Assembly (NCBI GenBank): GCA_963782155.1
Contig: CAWAIZ010000001.1
Coordinates: 31,878-95,877 of the forward strand
DNA from: an uncultured Actinomycetota bacterium
Lineage (GTDB): Bacteria; Actinomycetota; Actinomycetes; Propionibacteriales; Nocardioidaceae
Reading direction: 5' to 3'
DNA: 64,000 nucleotides
This document shows positions 20,875-30,794 of this stretch, piece by piece; the stretch's first letter is position 1; every line of letters begins with the position of its first letter. The notes beneath the pieces are model-generated. The model was not told the DNA's origin and made no database searches. It saw only the letters and a list, made by a program, of their open reading frames with translations. Both the position numbers and the translations under genes were made by a program.

Positions 20875-21453
20875 GTGACTGTTCATGCGATGGCGGGTGC
20901 GATGAGCCCGGCCCCCGCCTGGCACGAGACGGACGCAAACGGCGCCGTGGAGCAGCTGTACGCCGCCCACTGGCGGTCCCTGGTCCGGCTCAGCGCCCTG
21001 CTCGTGCGCGACGTCGGCACGGCCGAGGAGGTCGTGCAGGACGCGTTCGTGGCGATCCACCGCCGCTGGGACGGCATCCGCGACCCCGACCGGGCGTTGG
21101 CCTACCTGCGCCGGGCGGTCGTCAACGGCTCGCGGTCTCGGCTGCGCCACCTCAAGGTGGTGCGGACGCACGCGGAGCGCCAGCCGCCACCGACCGCCGT
21201 ACGCGGAGCCGACGAGGCCCTCCTGGAGACCTCCCGGCGGGAGGCGGTCCTGGACGCACTCGCCGCGCTCCCCCGCCGCCAGCGGGAGGTACTCGCCCTG
21301 CGTTACTACGTCGACCTCTCCGAGGCAGACATCGCCGAGACCCTCGGCATCAGCCGCGGGGCGGTGAAGAGCCACGCCTCGCGCGGCGCGGCCGCCCTCC
21401 GCGAGTCCCTGGCCGACCACCTCGCGGACCACCTGGAGGACCCGCATGACTGA
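20875..21453 (+). CDS. ECF RNA polymerase sigma factor (SigE family)
   Basis: AEEVVQDAF region 2; LPRRQREVLALRYYVDLSEADIAETLGISRGAVKSHASRG region 4. Confidence 0.92.
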   Translation: MTVHAMAGAMSPAPAWHETDANGAVEQLYAAHWRSLVRLSALLVRDVGTAEEVVQDAFVAIHRRWDGIRDPDRALAYLRRAVVNGSRSRLRHLKVVRTHAERQPPPTAVRGADEALLETSRREAVLDALAALPRRQREVLALRYYVDLSEADIAETLGISRGAVKSHASRGAAALRESLADHLADHLEDPHD

Positions 21454-22549
21454 CGACCCACGCCTCGACCCCAGGTACGACGCCCGGCTCTCGGAGCTGA
21501 TCTCCCAGGCCGCAGACAGCATCGAGCCCGGCGAGGGCCTGACCGCGATCCGTTCCCGCACCCGCAAGGAGAACCCCATGAGCAGCAACCCACGCAACTG
21601 GCTGTACGCCGTCACCGGCGCGGTCGCCGGCACCGCCGCCGTCATCGTGGCCATCGCCGTCGTGTCCCAGCTCAACAACGGGGACTCCTCCACTCCGGCC
21701 GCCGGGCAGGCCCAGACCTCGGCGCCCGACGCGACCAAGGACCCGTCGGCGAGCCAGTCACCCACGGACACCCCGACCACCGCAGACACCTCGCCGTCGG
21801 GCCTGCCCGTCGAGTCGGCCGTCCCGGTGTACTTCGCCGGCGACGGGCCGCGCGGCACCGTCCTCTTCCGCGAGTTCCAGCCCGGCATCGGCGCGGACCC
21901 GGTCGCCCAGGCTGCCCAGGCTGCCGTGGCGGGCCCGTCGCGCGATCCCGACTACCGCTCGCTCTGGCCGGCCGGCACGCAGGCCACCGCCTCATACGAC
22001 GGCGACGTGATCACCGTCGACCTCACCGGCCCGGACGGCTCGGCCCTCCACGACCGGCCGGCCGGGGTGTCGAAGCGCGACGCGAACCTCGCGGTCCAGC
22101 AGGTCATCTACAGCGTCCAGGGCGCGGCCCAGACCCGCGCCGGGGTTCAGCTCCTGATCGACGGCCAGCGCACCGACCAGGTCCTCGGCCAGCCGGCCTC
22201 CGAGCCGCTGAGCAACGCCCCAGGCTCCGACGTGCTGTCCCAGATGAGCATCACCTCACCCGAGGAGGGCCAGCAGGTCAGTGGCTCGTTCACCGCGTCG
22301 GGCGTCAACAACGCCTTCGAGGCGACCTTCACCTGGGAGCTGCGTGACGACAGCGGCCAGGTCGTGGCCAACGACTTCGGCACCGCCGAGGGCTGCTGCG
22401 AGGTCGACAAGCTCTTCTCGTGGACGGCCGACGTCGACCTCACGGGCGTCGTCCCAGGCACCTACACGTTCGTGGCGATGAACGACGACCCGTCCGGCGG
22501 CGAGGGCAAGGGCCCGGACGTCGACACGCGCACCGTCGTCGTCGAGTAG
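21446..22549 (+). CDS. Membrane-anchored GerMN + Gmad2 Ig-like domain protein (putative anti-sigma factor)
   Basis: Single TM; VPVYFAGD...LFREF, ITVDL, QQVIYSVQ; ITSPEEG...NNAFEATFTWE; overlaps the sigma gene stop. Confidence 0.75.
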   Translation: MTDDPRLDPRYDARLSELISQAADSIEPGEGLTAIRSRTRKENPMSSNPRNWLYAVTGAVAGTAAVIVAIAVVSQLNNGDSSTPAAGQAQTSAPDATKDPSASQSPTDTPTTADTSPSGLPVESAVPVYFAGDGPRGTVLFREFQPGIGADPVAQAAQAAVAGPSRDPDYRSLWPAGTQATASYDGDVITVDLTGPDGSALHDRPAGVSKRDANLAVQQVIYSVQGAAQTRAGVQLLIDGQRTDQVLGQPASEPLSNAPGSDVLSQMSITSPEEGQQVSGSFTASGVNNAFEATFTWELRDDSGQVVANDFGTAEGCCEVDKLFSWTADVDLTGVVPGTYTFVAMNDDPSGGEGKGPDVDTRTVVVE

Positions 22550-22565: not shown

Positions 22566-23717
22566 GTGGAGCTCTCGGCCCGGACGCTGAACCGCACCCT
22601 GCTCGCGCGCCAGTACCTGCTCGAGCGCGCCACCTCGACCGTCCCCGCGATGGTCGAGCACCTCGTCGGGATGCAGGCGCAGGACAACCTGCCGCCGTAC
22701 GTCGGCCTCGCCGCCCGCCTGGACACCTTCGACCCGTACGACGTCACCCGCGGGCTCGAGGACCGGTCCCTGGTGCGATTGCTGACGATGCGCAGCACGG
22801 TGCACCTGCTGGTCGCCGACGACGCGGTCACGTTGCGGCAGTTCACCAGGCCCATCCACGAGTACGAGCGACGGGTCAGCCAGAACATCACGGCCGCCCT
22901 GCACCTGGAGGTCGACGAGTTCGTGGTCGCCCTCCGGGCCGTGCTGGCGGACGGGCCGTTGCCCGTGAAGCAGCTCGGCGAGGCGCTGACCGCGACGTAC
23001 CCCGACGTGCCCCCGCACGCGCTCGGGTCCCTGGCCCGCGTCGCCGCTCCGCTGGCCCAGCTCCCGCCACGAGGGTGCTGGAAGCAGTCGGGCGGCGTGG
23101 TGTACGACTTCGTCGACAGCTGGGTCGGCCGGCCGCTCGCCGACCCCGACCCGGCGGCGATCGTGCGGCGGTACCTCGCGGCGTACGGTCCCGCCTCCGC
23201 CGCGGACGTCACCGCCTGGTCCGGGGTCCGCGGCATCCCCGCCGTCATCGCGGACATGGCCGACCTGGTCCGGCACACGGATGCTGCCGGCAAGAAGCTG
23301 GTCGACCTCCCCTCCGGGGAGCTCGTCGCCGAGGACACGCCGGCCCCCGTGCGGCTGCTCGGCGTCTACGACAACGTCTGGCTCTCCCACGCCGGCCGCG
23401 ACCGGGTCACGGACCCCGCCAAGCGCAAGCGCTGGATGGGCGTGAACGGCGGGATGTCCTCGACGGTGTTCGTCGACGGCTGGCTGGAGGGGCTGTGGCG
23501 GGTCGAGGACGGGCGGCCGGTGGTGGTCGAGCTGTTCCGCTCGCTGTCGCGGACCGAGAAGAGCGAGCTGAACGGGGAGCTCGACCGGGTCTCGGCGCTG
23601 CTCACGCATGAGTCGCCCACGACGCCGACTTCTGGCCGTCCTCCTACGGCACGTTCGTCAGGGTTCCGGGCGCCGCGCAGGGTGACGACGAGCCCAGCCA
23701 CAGGTCGCCCGGGTTGA
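22566..23717 (+). CDS. AlkZ-like (HTH_42) winged-helix DNA glycosylase family protein
   Basis: LNRTLLARQYLL, GMQAQD (QxQ), LTMRSTVHL, RRYLAAYGPAS, LLGVYDNV; TACGCT 6 nt before GTG; low-complexity tail overlaps the convergent gene. Confidence 0.85.
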   Translation: MELSARTLNRTLLARQYLLERATSTVPAMVEHLVGMQAQDNLPPYVGLAARLDTFDPYDVTRGLEDRSLVRLLTMRSTVHLLVADDAVTLRQFTRPIHEYERRVSQNITAALHLEVDEFVVALRAVLADGPLPVKQLGEALTATYPDVPPHALGSLARVAAPLAQLPPRGCWKQSGGVVYDFVDSWVGRPLADPDPAAIVRRYLAAYGPASAADVTAWSGVRGIPAVIADMADLVRHTDAAGKKLVDLPSGELVAEDTPAPVRLLGVYDNVWLSHAGRDRVTDPAKRKRWMGVNGGMSSTVFVDGWLEGLWRVEDGRPVVVELFRSLSRTEKSELNGELDRVSALLTHESPTTPTSGRPPTARSSGFRAPRRVTTSPATGRPG

Positions 23718-25203
23718 TCGACACCCGCCACGCGTAGTACGGGCCCGACGCCGGGATCTGGATGGTCGGTGAGTAGAACGTTCCGTTTCCCTGCGGGTGC
23801 GAGAAGGCTGTCGGCCCCCCGGCACTCGTTCCGCACTGGTCCGCCTGCGCTGCGACCTCGCTCGCGTAGGGCCCGAAGAGCGTGACGCTCCCACCGACCG
23901 CATCCGCGAAGGGCAACCCCGACACGGTCACCTGGACCTGCACGTTGTCGCCCACCGTCGCGGTGGGCTGGCTGAGGATCGTCGTCGTCGTGCGTGCCCG
24001 GACCCTGGTGACGGCGCCGCAGGCGGTCACCGGCAGACTGATGGCGGTGCCGTCCACCGTGACCTGCCACGCGTAGAAGCCGCCGGCGGACGGAGCGAGG
24101 GCGGGCAGGCGGTAGCTCCCGACACCTGCCACCGTCATGGTCGTCGTGCCGACCGGCGGGCCGGAGCAGACGGCCGCGGACGCGGACTGGAACGGCCCGA
24201 GCAGGGCAGCCGTCGCCTGACGCGGGCTGCCGTCCCCGGCGACCGTCGCAGTCACGGCGGCCTGACCGCCGACGACCAGGTTGTCGGGAGTGGCCTGCAA
24301 CGACATCGTCTGCGGCCCTCGCACGGCGGTGCGAGCGCTCGCCTGTACCGTCCGCCGGACTCCTCCCTCGGCGGCCGCGGCCTGGCCGCGTCTGACCGGC
24401 TTGCGCAGGTAGAGGCGGTGTTCGGGCACCTGGCCGACGCTGGCCGTGACGTCCTGCCAGCCCTGCTGGGTCGCCGGCAATCGTGACACCGCCCGGCCGT
24501 CGTCACCGCTGACGGCGTGGACCGTCGCGGCGCCGGGCATGGACACCGCGACCGGGAGCCCCGAGGCGGGTCGGTGGTGGCCGGCGGTGACCTTGACCGT
24601 CACCGCGATCGTGCCGCCCACGTCGGCGCTGGTGGCCGTCACCGTCACCCGGTAGACGCCCGCGAACTTGCGGCTCTGTACCAGCATGATCTTGGCGAAC
24701 CTCCGCACCGATGCCGGGTCGCCGCTGTGCTGGATCCGGGCCGTCCCGCGCGGGTGGCCGATCCGCCACCGGCCGCCTGCCAGCAGGTGATACACGACTG
24801 CGTCGACGGCGGCAGCCTGCAGGGCGTCCTTGTAGCCGCCGTACTTGGACAGCACCCATGCCGCCCGCGTGGTCGCCCGACGCGAGGCTCCTCGGGACTT
24901 GTCGAGGTCTGCTTCGGCGCGCGCCGCGTAGTAGCCGCGTCGGTTCGGGTGTCTGGTCGGCGTGACCACGAAGATGGGGGTGTCGCCGATCCTGTAGCCG
25001 CCCATCCAGCCGCCGTCGGCGTGGCCGTTGCGTGGGATGCGGTAGCCGGTCCATCGATGCGCCCGGTGCACGGCGGACGACGCCCCGACCGGTGCGGCGT
25101 CGGCGGAACGTTGGTGCACCGCCGGCAGGCCCGCCGCGACGAGCAGAAGAGCCATGAGCAAGGTCGGCCGCCAGGCGAGCGATATGCGGGCGTTCTCGGG
25201 CAT
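23644..25203 (-). CDS. Secreted adhesin-like protein (degenerate thioester-domain-like N-terminus + two Cys-containing Ig-like repeats)
   Basis: Signal peptide; AWVLSKYG...LQAAAVDAVVYHLL; repeated GP[FY]...C...G[FY]Y[AW]W...C units; GAGGAG SD just after the upstream stop. Confidence 0.6.
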   Translation of the reverse strand: MPENARISLAWRPTLLMALLLVAAGLPAVHQRSADAAPVGASSAVHRAHRWTGYRIPRNGHADGGWMGGYRIGDTPIFVVTPTRHPNRRGYYAARAEADLDKSRGASRRATTRAAWVLSKYGGYKDALQAAAVDAVVYHLLAGGRWRIGHPRGTARIQHSGDPASVRRFAKIMLVQSRKFAGVYRVTVTATSADVGGTIAVTVKVTAGHHRPASGLPVAVSMPGAATVHAVSGDDGRAVSRLPATQQGWQDVTASVGQVPEHRLYLRKPVRRGQAAAAEGGVRRTVQASARTAVRGPQTMSLQATPDNLVVGGQAAVTATVAGDGSPRQATAALLGPFQSASAAVCSGPPVGTTTMTVAGVGSYRLPALAPSAGGFYAWQVTVDGTAISLPVTACGAVTRVRARTTTTILSQPTATVGDNVQVQVTVSGLPFADAVGGSVTLFGPYASEVAAQADQCGTSAGGPTAFSHPQGNGTFYSPTIQIPASGPYYAWRVSINPGDLWLGSSSPCAAPGTLTNVP

Positions 25204-25214
25204 GGTCTGCCTCC

Positions 25215-26879
25215 TCACCCGACCGGAGGCGGTGCCACCGTGCCGGGATCCGTGGGGTTCCCGGTCGGGTGGGGCTGGGAAGTCGGGCTGGGCTGTGCGG
25301 TCGGGCTGGGTTGAGCGGTCGGGCTGGGTTGAGCGGTCGGGCTGGGTTGAGCGGTCGGGCTGGGTTGCGGAGTCGGGCTGGGCTGCGGAGTCGGGCTGGG
25401 CTCAGGAGTCGGAGTTGGCTGCGGAGTCGGGCTGGGTTCAGGAGTCGGAGTTGGCTGGTCCGACGGGCTGGGCCGCGGCGACGGGGTGGGGTCCTCGGTG
25501 GCGGTGGGCGTCGACGTCGCCGTGGGCGAGGTGGGGGGTGGTGGGACCCACACCCGGCCGGACACGGGGTCGACGTCCGGCGACGTGGCCCTCCACGATG
25601 CCCAACCCGCGGGCAGGCCCTCCAGGACGACCCGACGTCCGTCGCGGCTCGTCACCAGCAGGGTCCGGACGATGGGAGCACCTGTGGTGCCCTTGATGGT
25701 GAGCTTGACCGATGCCGGCAGGGAGGCCGCACTCAAGACGAACCTGGCCACGCCGGGCAACGCGCCGGCCGGTTGGACACTGAGCCCTTGCCCCACCCGG
25801 TCCAGGACGTTGCCGCCGTCCCCCGCGCCGCCGAGGCGGCCGGACTGGTCCCTCGATCCCGTCGTCAGGGTGCCGGCCTCCGGTCCACCTTCGCCTCGGT
25901 CAGGGCCGCCGATGGCCACCACGAGGGACACGCCGAGCAGCAGCACCGCCGCTCCGACCAGCCCCACGAGGACACGCGCGCTGCCGCCAGTCGTGGGCAC
26001 CTCTCGAGCCGGACCGGGAGGCGGCGTGGCGACGTCGGGGAGGACGGTCGGTTGCCGGGCCGGTGGTGGTGGAGGGGCAGCAGGTGGAGCCGGGAGGCGT
26101 GCCGGTGGAGGTGCCGGTGGCGGTGCGTGCGGAACGGAGGTGGCGTCCCCGACGCGGTTCGTCCCGACGGCTGATTCGACCAGCTCCAGGATCCGGTCCG
26201 ACGGGGCGACCCCGACGTGTTCCCACGTGGCTTCGCGATAGCGCCGGAACTCCGCCACCACACCGGCGAGGTCTCCTCGTGCCAGGTGCGCGCGCAGAGC
26301 GACCTCGCAAGCCGCCTCCGAATAGGGCTCGATCTCGGTCGCGGACCGGGTTGCGTCGATGGCGAGCTCCAGCTCTCCACGGTCCAGCGCCTGCCGCGAG
26401 ATCCGGTCGAGGGCACGCAGCCGCATCTGCCCGAGGCTCTCGCGCTCGGCCAGGACCCAGTCGTCGTACCAGCCGGGCAGCAGCTCCGGACCGCTGAGCA
26501 GTGAGAGCAGGCGGGACTGCTCGTCGTCGGACTCGGGAAGCTCGGAGACCTCCGCGGCGCGACAGACCTCCGCCACGTCGACGTCGATGTCCGGGTCCAG
26601 GCCGACGAAGGCGCGCCCGGCGTGCAACAGGCCAGGCCGAGCGTGTTGGGTCTGCATCACCGCCCGGCGCAGGCTCCCGAGCGCTCGCTCGTCGGTGCTC
26701 TCGGGCCACAGCAGGCCGGCCACGTGCGGCCGGGCCCGCTCACCGCTCAGTCCCAGGAGCGCGACCAGCCGCTGCTCGCGATGGCTGAGCCGCAGCTCGG
26801 CCCCGTTGTCGACGAGCAGCCAACCCCCGAGCAGGCGCAGGCTGGTGCGGCGCCGATATGCACTCTCCCCCTCTGGCAT
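25215..26879 (-). CDS. SARP/BTAD transcriptional regulator fused to TM helix, extracellular domain and Pro/Thr repeat tail
   Basis: LRLLGGW, LLWPES, SLRRAV, LLPGWYDDWVLAERE, EPYSEAA (wHTH-BTAD); VLVGLVGAAVLLLGVSLVVAIGG TM; (P[ST]PT[AP][QE])n. Confidence 0.85.
   Translation of the reverse strand: MPEGESAYRRRTSLRLLGGWLLVDNGAELRLSHREQRLVALLGLSGERARPHVAGLLWPESTDERALGSLRRAVMQTQHARPGLLHAGRAFVGLDPDIDVDVAEVCRAAEVSELPESDDEQSRLLSLLSGPELLPGWYDDWVLAERESLGQMRLRALDRISRQALDRGELELAIDATRSATEIEPYSEAACEVALRAHLARGDLAGVVAEFRRYREATWEHVGVAPSDRILELVESAVGTNRVGDATSVPHAPPPAPPPARLPAPPAAPPPPPARQPTVLPDVATPPPGPAREVPTTGGSARVLVGLVGAAVLLLGVSLVVAIGGPDRGEGGPEAGTLTTGSRDQSGRLGGAGDGGNVLDRVGQGLSVQPAGALPGVARFVLSAASLPASVKLTIKGTTGAPIVRTLLVTSRDGRRVVLEGLPAGWASWRATSPDVDPVSGRVWVPPPPTSPTATSTPTATEDPTPSPRPSPSDQPTPTPEPSPTPQPTPTPEPSPTPQPSPTPQPSPTAQPSPTAQPSPTAQPSPTAQPSPTSQPHPTGNPTDPGTVAPPPVG
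25275..25470. repeat. 18-bp coding tandem repeat (QPSPTA/EPSPTP) in regulator tail
   Basis: GGTCGGGCTGGGYTGWGC-type units repeated about ten times. Confidence 0.85.
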
Positions 26880-27054
26880 GGCCAGCCTCCCGGAAGCGCT
26901 TCCCCTCCCGGAGTACAGACCGCACGCCATGGACCGCTAGCACGCCGGGCGAGTTGAGGCTCTGCAGCCGGCAGGGGGTTAACCCCCCATCATCGCCACA
27001 CGCCGCGTGACCGGGCGAGGGTGGTCTAGACCGGGAGCGTGATCGGACGGGGTT

Positions 27055-27141: not shown

Positions 27142-27336
27142 ATGCGGGAACTCAACTTCACTGAACTCGAGGCCGAGCACATCGAGCTGCTTCCGACCCG
27201 GGAGACCATGAACGTCTTCGGCAGCAACTGGGCCGGGATCGTTGCGACCAACTCGTCGCTGGCACTCAACGCCGCGTCGCTGGGATCGCTGGCCAACAGC
27301 GCAGCCGTCCAGACGATCGTCGTCACCCAGAGCTGA
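27142..27336 (+). CDS. Leader-core precursor peptide 1 (64 aa; LPTRETM leader end)
   Basis: GGAGGTG SD 6 nt before ATG; acidic leader MRELNFTELEAEHIELLPTRETM; uncharged N/A/S/V-rich core. Confidence 0.85.
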   Translation: MRELNFTELEAEHIELLPTRETMNVFGSNWAGIVATNSSLALNAASLGSLANSAAVQTIVVTQS

Positions 27337-27344
27337 TCCGTCGC

Positions 27345-27371
27345 GCGTGGCCCCCTTCGCGGGGGCCACGC
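27345..27371 (+). terminator. GC-rich stem-loop between the two peptide genes (attenuator/mRNA stabiliser)
   Basis: GCGTGGCCCCC-TTCGC-GGGGGCCACGC, 11-bp perfect stem, no U-tract. Confidence 0.7.
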
Positions 27372-27409: not shown

Positions 27410-27613
27410 ATGATCCGACCTGAGGTTTCTACCGCTGACCTCGACGCCCAGATGGCAATGGCACTGCCTCGCCGCGAGACGTTGACGTGCTATTTCGCCT
27501 GCGTGAACGTCGTCGCAGGCGTCAACCTCGCCATCGCCGTCAACGCCGCCACCATCAACTCGCAGGCCAACGCGGTCGCGATGCAGTACCTCGCCGGGGT
27601 CCAGATGCCCTGA
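27410..27613 (+). CDS. Leader-core precursor peptide 2 (67 aa; LPRRETL leader end)
   Basis: GGAGGAAGG SD; leader MIRPEVSTADLDAQMAMALPRRETL; core TCYFACVNVVAGVNLAIAVNAATINSQANAVAMQYLAGVQMP homologous to peptide 1. Confidence 0.85.
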   Translation: MIRPEVSTADLDAQMAMALPRRETLTCYFACVNVVAGVNLAIAVNAATINSQANAVAMQYLAGVQMP

Positions 27614-27687
27614 TCGAGACAGGCGGCGGGTGTGTTGCTCTGGCGCGCCCGCCGTCCTCGCTCCTACACCCAGAGCACACCAGAGCG

Positions 27688-29994
27688 ATGAACCTCACGA
27701 CTGCAGACCACCGCGCCACCCCATCGCGGGCCGACGAGGCCCGATGGCGGCAGGCCGCCGGCCTGCAGCTCCTGGGGCAGGTACAGGGCTCGGGGATGCG
27801 CGACCCGACGTACCTGGTCCGGCGCGCTGACGACCAAGTGGTCCAGCTCTCCGAGCTGCTCCACCTGGTCGTCGTCCACGCCGACCCGTCTCGTCCCGCC
27901 GCCGACGTCGCCACGGCCGTCAGTGAGAGGTACGGCCGGACGCTCACGACCGAGGGTCTCCACCACCTCGTCACGACCCGTCTCGAGCCGCTCGGCCTGC
28001 TGCTGGCGGGCGACGCGGAGGAACCGACCAGCCCGACGAAGGCCAGGCCCCTCCTGGCCCTGACTCTCAAGGCCACCCTTCTCACGGCGCACCGCACGCA
28101 CGTGGTGGCCGGCATGTTGCGACCGATGTTCTGGCCGCCAGTCGTCGTTGCTGCCCTGGTGGCCCTGGTCGTCGCCGATGTTGCCCTCGTCGTGGGAGGT
28201 GACTTCTGGCAAGCCCTGACCCAGGTACTCGCCACTCCGACGACGGCCCTGCTCATCTACGGCCTGCTCGTCGCGTCAGCCGTGGTCCACGAGCTCGGCC
28301 ACGCGGGCGCCTGCCGCTACGGGGGCGCCCATCCAGGAGAGATCGGCGTCGGTGTCTACATCGTCTTCCCGGCTTTCTACACCGACGTCACCGACTCCTA
28401 CCGACTCGGGCGCGCGGGCCGGGTGCGCACCGATCTCGGCGGCCTCTACTTCAACGTGCTGACCGTCTTGGCGTTCGCACTCCTGTACGTCGCCACCGGG
28501 AGCGGTCTGTGGCTGCTGACCGCGCTGGGGCTGCAGCTGCAAATGCTGCAGCAGCTCATCCCGGTCGTGCGGTTCGACGGCTACTACATCCTCTCGGACC
28601 TGGCCGGTGTACCCGACCTGTTCGCCAGGGTCGGACCGGTGCTGCGCTCCCTCCGGCCGGGGCAACCTCCCGATCCGCGCGTCACCGAGCTGAGGCCCCA
28701 GGCACGCCGGTTCGTGACCGGCTGGGTGCTGGTCGTCGTGCCGCTGCTGACGGCTGCGCTGGTGTGGACCATCTGGCACCTGCCGGACCTCGTCGCCGCC
28801 GGCCGGGAAGGCATCCGGCTGCAACAGCTGGTCTTCGACGTGGCCTGGGAGCGCCGCGACTGGGCGGCCATGGCCCTGGCCGTCGTGTCGATCGCACTGA
28901 TCCTGGTCCCGCTGGCGGGGATGACGGTCGTGCTGTGGCGAACCACCGACACCCTCGTCACGCTCGTGCGCGGGCAGGCCGCGGCCAAGGCCCGCGGGAA
29001 GGAGCACAGCATGAGTACCGAGCTCACGGACACCCAGCGGCTCGCGGCCGTGCCACCGGCCGTCCTGTCCGCGGCGGACTTCACCGACGCGATCATGTAC
29101 GCCGCGCCGGTTCCGACACCCCACAGGGGCTGGCGTCGCGCTGTCTACGAGAGCAGCGCCCACGTGGTCAACCCGGGTCCGAGCGCGGCCGAGCAGCAGC
29201 GCGCGGAGCTCGAGCGACGGTTGCGCACCCCGATCTCGGGATCGCGTCGCGTCGTGGTGATGAGCCGCAAGGGCGGCGTCGGCAAGACCACCATCTCGCT
29301 GGCGCTGGGCAGCACCTTCGCAATGCTCCGCGGCGACCGTGTCATCGCCGTCGACGCGAACCCCGATGCGGGCAACCTCGCCCACCGGGTGGCACCTCCG
29401 CACGGCCGGAACATCACCGACGTGCTGCGCGACCTGGACCAGATCACCAGCTATGCCGCGCTGCGTTCCTACACCTCGCAGGCGGCCGAGTCCCGACTGG
29501 AGGTACTCGGTTCCGACGACGACCCGGGCATCGGGATGGCGCTGGACCGGGAGGACTACCACCGGCTGGTCGTGCTGCTCGACCGCTTCTACAACCTGAT
29601 CGTGCTCGACACGGGCACCGGGATCCTCGACAGCGCCAACCAGGGCCTGCTCACCGAGGCGGACCAGGTCGTGCTCGTGGTTCGCTCGGGCCTGGACGGT
29701 GGCCGGGCGGGCGCCCTGACCCTGGACTGGATGGACGCCCATGGGTTCGACGACCTCGTCGCCCGTGCGGTCGTCGTCGTCAACGCCCAGCGCCGCGGTG
29801 CCGCGCCGCCGGACCTGATGCGACGTCACTTCGAGAAGCGGTGCCGACACGTGGTGACCGTCCCGTGGGACGACGCCCTCGAGCAAGGAGCCCTGACCGA
29901 CATGTCCTCCCTCCGCCGAGCGACCCGGGACAGCCTCGTGGACGTCGCCGCAGCCGTCGCGGACAACTTCGTCCAGATGGGCGACCCGTCATGA
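27688..29994 (+). CDS. RRE/PqqD-like + M50 (site-2) zinc metalloprotease + MinD/ParA-family ATPase fusion (768 aa)
   Basis: N-terminal YLVRRADDQVVQLSELLHLVV...VATAVS; HELGH and PVVRFDGY M50 motifs; SRKGGVGKTT deviant Walker A, VDANPDAGNL, IVLDTGTG. Confidence 0.85.
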   Translation: MNLTTADHRATPSRADEARWRQAAGLQLLGQVQGSGMRDPTYLVRRADDQVVQLSELLHLVVVHADPSRPAADVATAVSERYGRTLTTEGLHHLVTTRLEPLGLLLAGDAEEPTSPTKARPLLALTLKATLLTAHRTHVVAGMLRPMFWPPVVVAALVALVVADVALVVGGDFWQALTQVLATPTTALLIYGLLVASAVVHELGHAGACRYGGAHPGEIGVGVYIVFPAFYTDVTDSYRLGRAGRVRTDLGGLYFNVLTVLAFALLYVATGSGLWLLTALGLQLQMLQQLIPVVRFDGYYILSDLAGVPDLFARVGPVLRSLRPGQPPDPRVTELRPQARRFVTGWVLVVVPLLTAALVWTIWHLPDLVAAGREGIRLQQLVFDVAWERRDWAAMALAVVSIALILVPLAGMTVVLWRTTDTLVTLVRGQAAAKARGKEHSMSTELTDTQRLAAVPPAVLSAADFTDAIMYAAPVPTPHRGWRRAVYESSAHVVNPGPSAAEQQRAELERRLRTPISGSRRVVVMSRKGGVGKTTISLALGSTFAMLRGDRVIAVDANPDAGNLAHRVAPPHGRNITDVLRDLDQITSYAALRSYTSQAAESRLEVLGSDDDPGIGMALDREDYHRLVVLLDRFYNLIVLDTGTGILDSANQGLLTEADQVVLVVRSGLDGGRAGALTLDWMDAHGFDDLVARAVVVVNAQRRGAAPPDLMRRHFEKRCRHVVTVPWDDALEQGALTDMSSLRRATRDSLVDVAAAVADNFVQMGDPS

Positions 29995-30794
29995 GGGTGC
30001 GTTCCGCCGCGCCGTGCGTCGTCATCGCCGCAGTCCTGCTCGTCGCCGGCATGGACTACGCCTCACCCGGCGCCTACCCGGACCCCGACCCGCGCAACCT
30101 CGACCTCTTGGCGAGTGCCCAGCCGACAACGGCCCAGATGGTCGTCAGCGATGCCGCCTTCGACGAGCTCAAGGTCCGCGACTGGAACGTCAAGGCCGAC
30201 GTCGCGGCGACCACGTCTGCCACCTGCGACGGCTGCGTCGGGGAGAGCACCGCGCTCCAGATCGTCTATGCGTCGCGCGCGAAGCAGGCTCGGTTCGACA
30301 ACTCCGCGGTCGCGTGGACGCAGGCCTGCCAGGGTTGCACCGGTGCGGCGCTCTCCGTCCAGGTGGTCGTGCTGCCCGGCGGGTCCGAGGCGCTTCCAAA
30401 CAACCGGGCCATCGCGGTGACGGCTGCGTGCACCGGCTGCCGGGTTGCTTCGGCGGCCTTCCAGGTCGTCGTGGTCGCCGACCGTACCCGCCGCCTCTCG
30501 CGCGAGTCGCTGGCCGAGCTGAGGAGCTGGTTCGACGAGCAGGCTGCTGCGCTTCGCGCCACGGTGGCGCTCCCGAGGCCCGAGCCGTCGCCCGGTCCCG
30601 ACCCGTCTCCTCACCCGACCGCGCCCACCGACGGCACCAGCGCGCCCATCGGACCCACCGACCCGCAGCGCCGTCCCTATGTCGGACGCCAGGCCAAGCG
30701 CGTCTCGACCGAGGCGCTGGCCGAGCTCGAGGGCCTCGTGACGTCCGGCCTCGACGCCGAGGCGATCCTCGCCGATGTGGACCTCGGCCAGTGA
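29991..30794 (+). CDS. Secreted/membrane-tethered protein with three 34-aa CxxC repeats homologous to the peptide cores (267 aa)
   Basis: ATGA overlap; hydrophobic N-terminus; CDGC, CQGC and CTGC at residues 79, 113, 147; Pro-rich linker near the C-terminus. Confidence 0.8.
   Translation: MRVRSAAPCVVIAAVLLVAGMDYASPGAYPDPDPRNLDLLASAQPTTAQMVVSDAAFDELKVRDWNVKADVAATTSATCDGCVGESTALQIVYASRAKQARFDNSAVAWTQACQGCTGAALSVQVVVLPGGSEALPNNRAIAVTAACTGCRVASAAFQVVVVADRTRRLSRESLAELRSWFDEQAAALRATVALPRPEPSPGPDPSPHPTAPTDGTSAPIGPTDPQRRPYVGRQAKRVSTEALAELEGLVTSGLDAEAILADVDLGQ

What the first reader, a model, noticed from the sequence alone, without database searches (positions are those of the whole stretch)
30198..30476. 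Secreted partner carries three disulfide-stapled copies of the peptide core at an exact 34-residue period
Repeats start at residues 70, 104 and 138: DVAATTSATCDGCVGESTALQIVYA, NSAVAWTQACQGCTGAALSVQVVVL, NRAIAVTAACTGCRVASAAFQVVVV. Repeat 3 aligns without gaps to peptide 1 core NSSLALNAASLGSLANSAAVQTIVV (11 of 25 identical, N1 and Q21 fixed) and to peptide 2 NLAIAVNAATINSQANAVAMQ (9 of 21). The CxxC pairs occupy the positions of the peptides' S-L-G-S / T-I-N-S turn. Inference: a pre-folded beta-solenoid template that nucleates or anchors peptide polymerisation, analogous to the role of CsgB for CsgA in curli.
Basis: partly seen in the sequence, partly recalled or inferred. Interest (0 to 1): 0.85.

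Follow-up and report, generated by a model that had tools for sequence, protein, structure and literature searches.

The report
Solenoid partner that mimics operon peptides
A secreted or membrane-tethered Nocardioides protein is predicted to fold as a cysteine-braced beta-solenoid whose last coil resembles two small uncharged peptides from the same operon, which suggests an undescribed peptide-docking or fibre-seeding system, though its function is untested.

Summary
The 267-aa protein at 29991-30794 (+) has three 34-residue CxxC repeats starting at residues 70, 104 and 138. The six cysteines are invariant across 109 homologues.

AlphaFold2 gives a very confident model (domain pLDDT 96.8) of four strand-arc-strand coils. 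Its best PDB matches are nearly all beta-solenoids (FapC, SufD, ice-binding proteins, CsgA), but none is significant.

The peptide resemblance is weak but real, and it applies to repeat 3 only:
- hhalign P is 2-4e-4, with 0 of 300 column shuffles reaching the real score.
- Reversed and parity-preserving controls fail.
- Plain HMMER does not detect the similarity, and 11/25 identity is not significant genome-wide.

The operon (two LPxRET-leader peptides, a daptide-MpaP-like HExxH intramembrane protease fused to a ParA/MinD ATPase, and this protein) recurs in about 41 Nocardioides-type loci. In sister systems the same domain is fused to the outward-facing end of the protease. That places it where cleaved peptides should emerge.

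My best reading, at about 0.4, is a docking or templating seed for single-coil peptides. Capping, chaperone or protease-ectodomain roles remain open. No Pfam, NCBIfam or PDB family covers it. I rate it a new variant of the nucleator-plus-subunit amyloid idea, with no functional evidence yet.

The parts
29991..30794 (+). Gene for the 267-aa CxxC-repeat protein (P0001). Its ATG overlaps the stop of the upstream protease-ATPase gene (ATGA at 29991-29994).
   Evidence: 191 homologues, all annotated as hypothetical. 984 clusters at 50% identity with E<=1e-3. No Pfam or NCBIfam family.
29991..30071 (+). N-terminal signal peptide or signal anchor (MRVR, then a hydrophobic stretch of about 16 residues, then SPGA). 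It places the rest of the protein outside the cytoplasm.
   Evidence: A single hydropathy peak at residues 3-21. Arg residues lie on the N-terminal side. The model shows a helix at 7-21. Whether it is cleaved was not tested.
30093..30197 (+). Coil 0: a first strand-arc-strand coil without cysteines (residues 35-69).
   Evidence: AF2 strands E36-43 and E51-62, equal to E3-11 and E19-30 in the domain model.
30198..30299 (+). Repeat 1 (residues 70-103), with CDGC at 79-82.
30300..30401 (+). Repeat 2 (residues 104-137), with CQGC at 113-116.
   Evidence: Found in register by an HMM built from repeat 3 only (i-E 0.0026).
30402..30503 (+). Repeat 3 (residues 138-171), with CTGC at 147-150. This is the coil that resembles the peptide cores.
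   Evidence: hhalign aligns peptide 1 W30-T62 to residues 131-163. It aligns peptide 2 N-Q to residues 138-158.
30501..30566 (+). Conserved helix after the solenoid (residues 171-192, including invariant W180 and Q184).
30567..30662 (+). Pro/Thr-rich disordered linker of variable length.
   Evidence: pLDDT about 50. Length varies across the alignment.
30663..30791 (+). C-terminal helix (225-254) and terminal beta-strand (257-266). Both are modelled confidently, pack on the domain, and may cap one end.
   Evidence: pLDDT 88-98. The C-terminus is conserved.
27142..27336 (+). Peptide 1 precursor (64 aa). It has a leader ending LLPTRETM and an uncharged N/S/A/Q-rich core.
   Evidence: 182 homologues, all annotated as hypothetical.
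27410..27613 (+). Peptide 2 precursor (67 aa). It has a leader ending ALPRRETL and a core carrying a conserved CxxxC pair. It is a paralogue of peptide 1.
   Evidence: hhalign peptide 1 vs peptide 2 gives P 2.7e-5. tblastn gives E 1.4e-5.
27345..27371 (+). Perfect GC-rich hairpin (11 bp stem, 5 nt loop) directly after the peptide 1 stop codon.
   Evidence: 86-nt context: -44.2 kcal/mol, z -3.1..
27622..27656 (+). Hairpin of about 15 bp directly after the peptide 2 stop codon.
   Evidence: z -1.8 only.
27688..29994 (+). A single ORF encoding an HExxH intramembrane metalloprotease (HELGH, RFDGY) fused to a ParA/MinD-type ATPase (KGGVGKTT).
   Evidence: NF041824 daptide_HExxH at 2.8e-29, but 102 bits against a 300-bit cut-off. 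CbiA and AAA_31 hits. The fusion is present in 42 of 43 related loci.
25215..26930 (-). Divergent BTAD/SARP-type regulator with a TM helix and a Pro/Thr-rich tail. It belongs to the conserved module.
   Evidence: Pfam BTAD at 3e-7. Present in 33 of 43 loci.
23644..25218 (-). Secreted 524-aa protein with a weak Ig-like hit. It overlaps the regulator gene by 4 bases and belongs to the conserved module.
   Evidence: 29 of 43 loci; Big_1 hit is below the cut-off.

Best explanation
The protein is an extracytoplasmic, four-coil, two-sheet beta-solenoid. Each 34-residue coil is strand-arc-strand. In three coils the arc carries a CxxC pair that most likely forms an intra-arc disulfide.

It is the outside partner of a leader-guided maturation machine. 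The two precursors are recognised through their LPxRET leaders and cut by the MpaP-like intramembrane HExxH protease. Their uncharged cores of about 35-40 residues each have the length and residue pattern of one coil. They share N1, the A-x-A-x-N/T-A-A pattern, Ser/Thr where the protein has Cys, and A-x-Q-x-V.

The released cores then dock onto the solenoid by in-register stacking on, or in place of, the peptide-like last coil. The protein would therefore act as a pre-folded seed or anchor for peptide assembly.

Shown: the repeats, their conservation, the operon, the domain-protease fusion in sister systems, and the non-random similarity. Model-level: the solenoid fold. Inferred: disulfides, export route, docking and polymerisation.
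For: - Repeats and invariant Cys, Asn and Gln.
- AF2 domain model with pLDDT 96.8 and pTM 0.88, showing eight long strands in four coils.
- The top Foldseek hits are beta-solenoids, led by the FapC amyloid.
- Six of the top 60 covarying pairs lie at separation 34 +/- 1, against 2.1 expected.
- The peptide-to-repeat-3 profile match spans 33 ungapped columns, close to one full coil. It beats column shuffles (0/300), reversed controls and parity-preserving controls.
- The repeat-3 HMM ranks the peptide 1 ORF about 9th of 47,788.
- The mature cores carry no charged residue.
- The four-gene operon is conserved in about 41 loci, with an ATGA start-stop overlap.
- A homologous domain (hhalign probability 98.7%, E 2.6e-16) is fused after one extra TM helix to the C-terminus of the same protease type in other Nocardioidaceae. 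In those proteins one coil has T-D-G-S in place of CxxC.
- Stable hairpins follow both peptide genes, consistent with peptide excess over the enzymes.
- MpaP is an RRE-dependent intramembrane leader peptidase (10.1101/2023.03.08.531785).
Against: - There is no experimental or multimer-model evidence that the peptides bind or polymerise.
- Standard HMMER profiles do not connect the peptides and the repeats.
- Raw 11/25 identity is matched by 11 unrelated windows genome-wide.
- Peptide and repeat similarity does not co-evolve across loci.
- Only one of the three repeats is peptide-like.
- The helix that follows repeat 3, and the confidently packed C-terminal helix and strand, may occlude the ends of the solenoid.
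- The module has no transporter, so the export route is unknown.
- In the sister systems the precursors are 220-340 aa, and their similarity to their own fused domain is not significant (P 0.05).
- I could not inspect model coordinates, so the parallel topology is inferred indirectly.
Confidence: 0.4

Rival explanations
1. Capping, chaperone or immunity factor. The solenoid binds freshly released peptide cores by the same coil mimicry, but the effect is to block or delay their self-assembly at the producer's membrane. This would be comparable in logic to CsgC/CsgH or to bacteriocin immunity proteins. It would not seed a fibre.
For: - The same similarity and operon evidence applies.
- The capped-looking architecture, with helices and a terminal strand packed on the domain.
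- The gene is translationally coupled to the protease and so made at enzyme-like levels, while hairpins after the peptide genes suggest peptide excess.
- No co-evolution is needed for a generic binder.
Against: - A stoichiometric inhibitor made at low levels would be swamped by an excess of peptide.
- Tethering the domain to the protease in sister systems fits a receiving or assembly site at least as well.
- The peptides are uncharged and unlike typical membrane-active bacteriocins.
Confidence: 0.2
2. An ectodomain of the protease complex with no templating role. The domain is a structural or gating module of the intramembrane protease, handling substrate release, stability or cell-wall contact. 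The peptides act as soluble secreted signals or antimicrobials. The resemblance to the peptides reflects shared ancestry only.
For: - The domain is fused to the protease in sister systems.
- The divergent BTAD regulator with a TM segment could sense a secreted peptide.
- No co-evolution was found.
Against: - It does not explain why the invariant positions of the peptides and of coil 3 coincide.
- It does not explain why the peptide cores are exactly coil-sized, charge-free and N/Q/A-rich.
Confidence: 0.15
3. Chance or compositional resemblance. The repeats are real, but their likeness to the peptides comes from Ala/Val/Asn-rich beta-strand composition in a high-GC genome.
For: HMMER finds nothing. 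Eleven other genomic 25-mers also reach 11/25. hhalign probability is only 36-47% for peptide 1 and 6% for peptide 2.
Against: - Column shuffles, parity-preserving shuffles and reversed profiles all score far lower.
- Both peptide families hit the same coil in the same register.
- The invariant columns coincide.
- The genes lie in one conserved operon, so the search space is a few hundred comparisons rather than millions.
Confidence: 0.08
4. Redox or metal function. The stacked CxxC arcs act as a thiol-disulfide exchange or metal-binding site. One possibility is oxidising the conserved CxxxC pair of peptide 2.
For: Six invariant Cys in three CxxC motifs. Peptide 2 carries a conserved Cys pair.
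Against: - There is no thioredoxin-like fold or family hit.
- One coil of the homologous fused domain lacks the Cys pair.
- Peptide 1 and the sister precursors have no Cys.
Confidence: 0.07

Closest known systems
Curli CsgB (nucleator) and CsgA (subunit), E. coli
   Same: A cell-associated protein made of repeated strand-turn-strand coils with Asn/Gln at fixed positions resembles the polymerising subunit encoded in the same locus. The solenoid fold class matches, and the CsgA fibril 8enq appears among the top Foldseek hits.
   Different: - No curlin-repeat match and no sequence relation.
- Coils are 34 residues with disulfide-capable arcs, against about 22 in curli.
- The subunits here would be single-coil peptides released from leader-bearing precursors by an intramembrane protease. 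Curli subunits are five-repeat Sec substrates exported through CsgG.
- The organism is Gram-positive.
Fap functional amyloid (FapB/FapC), Pseudomonas
   Same: The best structural neighbour is FapC, 9u4u_A (E 3e-3). Fap also has three imperfect repeats, a nucleator-plus-major-subunit logic, and a protease in the operon. The last three points are from my own knowledge.
   Different: The match is not significant (TM 0.16). There is no sequence relation. The protease type and the export route differ.
Daptide maturation (precursors MpaA, RRE-dependent intramembrane peptidase MpaP)
   Same: The protease is the nearest annotated relative (NF041824, 2.8e-29). Both systems use leader-bearing small precursors cut by a membrane-embedded HExxH peptidase (10.1101/2023.03.08.531785).
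   Different: - The score is far below the family cut-off (102 vs 300 bits).
- The precursors have no C-terminal Thr.
- The module has no decarboxylase, aminotransferase or methyltransferase.
- Daptide clusters have neither a solenoid partner nor a ParA fusion.
Amyloid signalling motif pairs (HET-s/NWD2 in fungi; BASS motifs in Actinobacteria)
   Same: A short amyloid-type motif shared by the products of adjacent genes, sometimes as pseudorepeats in one partner and a single copy in the other. This is read as templating (10.1101/2020.01.06.895854).
   Different: Those systems are cytoplasmic pairs of an NLR and a Bell-domain effector. Here there is no NLR or Bell domain, the location is extracytoplasmic, and the precursors are processed at a leader.
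Chaplins of Streptomyces
   Same: Small hydrophobic secreted actinobacterial amyloid peptides, some with a conserved Cys pair (my own knowledge).
   Different: No chaplin-domain hit. Chaplins use Sec signal peptides and have no dedicated protease or solenoid partner.

Membership tests
Curli (CsgA/CsgB) | Curlin repeat (Pfam PF07012) in subunit and nucleator | tested here: not met
   The Pfam scan of P0001 and both peptides at E<=0.1 gave no curlin hit. The PDB sequence search found no CsgA.
Curli (CsgA/CsgB) | CsgG/E/F outer-membrane secretion apparatus in the locus | tested here: not met
   The conserved module holds only a regulator, an Ig-like protein, two peptides, the protease-ATPase and P0001.
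Fap amyloid (FapB/FapC) | Sequence or structural homology to FapC repeats | tested here: inconclusive
   FapC is the best Foldseek hit, but E is 3e-3 with TM 0.16. There is no sequence hit.
Chaplins | Chaplin domain in the peptides | tested here: not met
   No Pfam hit for either peptide.
Daptide RiPP pathway | MpaP-type RRE-fused HExxH intramembrane peptidase (NF041824 above cut-off) | tested here: inconclusive
   The protein is clearly homologous (2.8e-29), but scores 102 bits against a 300-bit cut-off. No PqqD/RRE Pfam hit.
Daptide RiPP pathway | Precursor ends in Thr; oxidative decarboxylase, aminotransferase and methyltransferase genes present | tested here: not met
   The peptides end in ...TQS and ...QMP. 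No such enzymes occur in the conserved module.
Beta-solenoid fold class | Successive repeats stack in register as parallel coils | tested here: met
   This is met at model level only:
- AF2 pLDDT 96.8.
- Solenoid-dominated Foldseek neighbours.
- Isolated bridge residues at 114 and 148, 34 apart.
- Covariation enriched at d=34.
I could not inspect the coordinates.
NLR-associated amyloid signalling pairs (BASS/HRAM) | Motif shared between an NLR N-terminus and the C-terminus of a Bell/HeLo-type effector | tested here: not met
   A motif is shared between adjacent genes, but no NB-ARC/NACHT or Bell domain is present.

The most novel reading that the evidence does not exclude
A widespread actinobacterial pathway in which leader-guided intramembrane proteolysis feeds charge-free peptides of about 35-40 residues onto a disulfide-braced solenoid seed. 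Each peptide would add one coil. This would build a surface cross-beta fibre or layer without a dedicated transporter, with templated folding on the seed helping to pull the peptide out of the membrane. It would be a Gram-positive counterpart of curli nucleation, built on RiPP-style leader logic. The acidic-repeat sister systems, where the domain is fused to the protease, would be a second branch.
Probability: 0.3. Interest if true: 0.85.

Novelty: new variant of a known kind. Interest (0 to 1): 0.7.

Why it matters
If the templating reading is right, this would be a new way to assemble functional amyloid. The subunits would be single-coil peptides matured like RiPP precursors, and the seed would be a pre-folded solenoid that mimics them. 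In sister systems that seed sits directly on the protease.

The family is not marginal. The domain has 984 clusters at 50% identity. The sister precursor family has at least 3,409 members across Nocardioides, Kribbella, Pseudonocardia and Arthrobacter. Neither has a Pfam or NCBIfam model.

Even if the function proves different, three things stand as concrete leads:
- the confident, unmatched fold;
- the fusion between protease and domain in sister systems;
- the first non-daptide context for MpaP-like peptidases.

The idea is directly testable with synthetic peptides and a small recombinant domain.

Tried and rejected
- HMMER profiles of the pooled repeats against all 47,788 six-frame ORFs, and of the peptide core against the same set, gave no cross-detection. 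The link rests on profile-profile and restricted-space statistics.
- Co-evolution test of cognate versus non-cognate peptide/repeat identity across about 30 loci: no signal for peptide 1 (p 0.24), borderline for peptide 2 (p 0.045).
- Sister-system precursor against its own fused domain: P 0.05, not significant.
- Foldseek against the PDB with the full-length and domain-only models: no hit with E<1e-3 and all TM scores low.
- PDB sequence searches with both family profiles returned only spurious hits.
- PADLOC returned nothing relevant.
- The promoter and terminator consensus scan was uninformative in this high-GC DNA.
- No paralogues of the peptides or of P0001 exist elsewhere in the genome.
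- Literature searches found no description of this module.
- Daptide, curli, Fap, chaplin and BASS membership were each considered and rejected on defining features.

Full report
**What is there.** The finding lies in a 267-aa ORF at 29991-30794 (+). Its ATG overlaps the stop codon of the upstream gene (ATGA at 29991-29994).
- Repeats start at residues 70, 104 and 138.
- CxxC motifs lie at 79-82, 113-116 and 147-150, with a period of exactly 34.
- Repeat 3 shares 11/25 residues with the peptide 1 core and 9/21 with peptide 2, without gaps.

The N-terminus (MRVR, then about 16 hydrophobic residues) is a signal peptide or signal anchor with its positive charges on the N-terminal side. The repeats are therefore extracytoplasmic. 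Whether the signal is cleaved was not tested.

**The repeats are real and conserved.**
- The protein has 191 close homologues, all named 'hypothetical' and largely from Nocardioides.
- An exhaustive profile search finds 984 clusters at 50% identity with E<=1e-3, of which 118 have E<=1e-30.
- In 109 aligned homologues all six Cys, N104, N138, Q124, Q158, W109, A156 and others are invariant.
- An HMM built from repeat 3 alone finds repeat 2 in register (i-E 0.0026 against 47,788 six-frame ORFs of this genome). HMMs of repeats 1 and 2 find repeat 3 in register more weakly.
- No Pfam, NCBIfam, PADLOC or PDB-sequence family covers the protein.

**Fold.** AlphaFold2 with the family alignment gives pLDDT 84 for the full length, with about 98 in the core. 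For residues 33-166 alone it gives pLDDT 96.8 and pTM 0.88.

The domain has eight strands of 9-13 residues arranged as four strand-arc-strand units. There is one Cys-free coil (residues 35-69), followed by the three CxxC repeats with the CxxC in the arc. A helix (171-192), a Pro/Thr-rich linker, and a confidently placed C-terminal helix and strand (225-266) follow.

I could not read the coordinates. Three indirect lines indicate parallel in-register stacking, that is a solenoid, and argue against an antiparallel meander:
- In both Foldseek searches nearly every top hit is a beta-helix or amyloid solenoid. These include FapC 9u4u (best, E 3e-3), SufD/SufB, ice-binding proteins, the CAP C-terminal domain, UreD, the CsgA fibril and pectate lyases. 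None is significant and all TM scores are low.
- DSSP marks one isolated bridge residue inside the arc of repeat 2 (residue 114) and of repeat 3 (residue 148), exactly 34 apart. This is what stacked arcs give.
- In an MI-APC covariation analysis (Neff 166), 6 of the top 60 pairs lie at separation 34 +/- 1, against 2.1 expected.

The cross-section, with two long strands per 34-residue coil, has no close solved relative.

**Is the peptide likeness more than chance?** It is weak, but yes.
- Profile-profile comparison of the peptide 1 family (44 sequences) with the protein family aligns 33 ungapped columns, W30-T62 to residues 131-163. P is 3.8e-4.
- With the peptide 1 core alone, P is 1.9e-4 and the score is 26.8. 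Three hundred column shuffles give 10.8 +/- 2.3 with a maximum of 19.7.
- Reversed profiles score 10-13. Shuffles that keep the odd/even strand pattern reach at most 18.8.
- Peptide 2 hits the same coil in the same register (score 20.5, P 0.006; 1 of 200 shuffles reaches it).
- Residue shuffles reach the observed identity 0 times in 200,000 for peptide 1 and 51 times in 200,000 for peptide 2.
- The repeat-3 HMM ranks the peptide 1 ORF about ninth of 47,788 ORFs.
- The invariant columns coincide: N1, A-x-A, A-A, A-x-Q and V. The two Cys positions are Ser/Ser in peptide 1 and Thr/Ser in peptide 2.

Several results limit this:
- HMMER with pooled-repeat or peptide profiles finds nothing.
- Eleven unrelated 25-mers among 6.26 million in the genome also reach 11/25. 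The identity count is convincing only because the search space is one operon.
- Only repeat 3 is peptide-like across the family: 35-39% identity, against 16-18% for repeat 1 and 21-31% for repeat 2.
- Cognate pairs are no more alike than non-cognate pairs, so there is no co-evolution signal.

**Context.** The upstream genes on the same strand are:
- Peptide 1 (27142-27336) and peptide 2 (27410-27613). They are paralogues (P 2.7e-5). Each has an acidic leader ending LPxRET[LM] and a core with no charged residue. Each gene is followed by a strong GC hairpin.
- One ORF (27688-29994) that joins an HExxH intramembrane metalloprotease to a ParA/MinD-type ATPase. Its nearest named relative is the daptide leader peptidase (NF041824, 2.8e-29), but the score is well below the cut-off. 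MpaP is described as an RRE-dependent intramembrane leader peptidase (10.1101/2023.03.08.531785).

Divergently transcribed are a BTAD regulator with a TM segment and a secreted protein with a weak Ig-like hit.

All six genes recur together in Nocardioides-type loci:
- The protease-ATPase is present in 42 of 43 loci, the regulator in 33 and the Ig-like protein in 29.
- The peptides are present in nearly all of the 41 loci found in the genome-collection scan.
- The flanking housekeeping genes (rsmE, dnaJ, hrcA) are not conserved with the module.
- Distribution is patchy. The domain is found in 19 of 151 genomes of the family and in none of six congeners sampled.

There are no modifying enzymes and no transporter in the module.

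**A fusion in sister systems.** In 14 of the 16 loci fetched from other Nocardioidaceae genera, a homologous domain is fused to the C-terminus of the same protease type (hhalign probability 98.7%, E 2.6e-16). The fused domain has two CxxC coils plus one coil with T-D-G-S at the arc.

Hydropathy shows one extra TM helix before the fused domain, relative to the point where the ATPase begins in this window's protein. That fits a cytoplasmic ATPase and a solenoid on the outside.

Those loci have no ParA domain. They encode, just upstream, acidic repeat proteins of 220-340 aa with a related leader (ALPDKEVVS). The end of their core also resembles peptide 1 (P 5.6e-4). That precursor family has at least 3,409 members. 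Some are named 'peptidoglycan-binding protein' by NCBI, in Kribbella, Pseudonocardia and Arthrobacter.

An earlier agent's note on another genome describes the same sister module. I reached it independently from the loci.

**Most likely mechanism (confidence about 0.4).**
1. The leader is recognised on the cytoplasmic side, and the intramembrane protease cuts after the LPxRET region.
2. The uncharged, coil-sized core is released at the outer face.
3. There the solenoid offers a pre-folded, probably disulfide-braced template, either as a separate anchored or secreted protein or fused to the protease. Its last coil matches the peptide pattern.
4. The peptides dock by in-register stacking and may extend it.

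Shown here: the repeats, their conservation, the operon, the fusion, and the non-random similarity. Model-level: the solenoid. Inferred: disulfides, export, docking and polymerisation.

The C-terminal helices and strand may cap an end. A capping, chaperone or immunity role (0.2), or a plain protease ectodomain with soluble peptide products (0.15), therefore remains open. A redox or metal role (0.07) and pure chance (0.08) are less likely.

**Comparison with known systems.** The logic is closest to CsgB/CsgA and FapB/FapC (nucleator plus related subunit), and to amyloid signalling motif pairs shared by adjacent genes (10.1101/2020.01.06.895854). The protease is closest to daptide MpaP.

Membership fails in every case:
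- No curlin or chaplin domain.
- No sequence link to FapC.
- No daptide tailoring enzymes and no C-terminal Thr.
- No NLR or Bell domain.

I file it as a new variant of the nucleator-plus-subunit idea, with function unproven.

**Limits.**
- Complexes could not be predicted.
- Coordinates could not be inspected.

Noticed in passing
L024-L037 (e.g. L024:6360-8678 and the roughly 860-base gene just upstream of it): Sister module in other Nocardioidaceae. Acidic repeat proteins of 220-340 aa (leader ALPDKEVVS; ANANVAAPIDAAV-type repeats; core ending QQDAxINQ...DQxSDIxQ) sit directly upstream of an HExxH protease. That protease carries the homologous two-CxxC solenoid domain at its C-terminus. The precursor family has at least 3,409 members, some named 'peptidoglycan-binding protein' by NCBI.
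   Followed up: partly
window 27345-27371 and 27622-27656: Strong GC-rich hairpins lie immediately after the stop codons of both peptide genes. They may be attenuators or stabilisers that give peptide transcripts in excess over the downstream enzyme genes.
   Followed up: partly
window 27688-29994: The intramembrane protease and a ParA/MinD-type ATPase form a single ORF in 42 of 43 related loci. The sister systems lack the ATPase altogether. The role of the ATPase is unknown.
   Followed up: partly
window 25215-26930 (-) and 23644-25218 (-): A BTAD/SARP regulator with a TM helix and a long (PT/PS)-rich tail overlaps by 4 bases a secreted 524-aa protein with a weak Ig-like hit. Both travel with the peptide operon in most related loci.
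   Followed up: partly
window 27410-27613: Peptide 2 carries a conserved Cys pair (C-x-F-A-C, CQFAC in most homologues) at the start of its core. Peptide 1 has none.
   Followed up: no
window 30093-30130 vs sister precursors: The invariant LDL-x-A-S-A start of coil 0 in this protein resembles the ILDLNAD start of the sister precursors' cores. This was seen by eye only.
   Followed up: no
window 21446-22549 (+): A protein with Germane and Gmad2 (spore-germination-type) domains lies just outside the conserved module.
   Followed up: no
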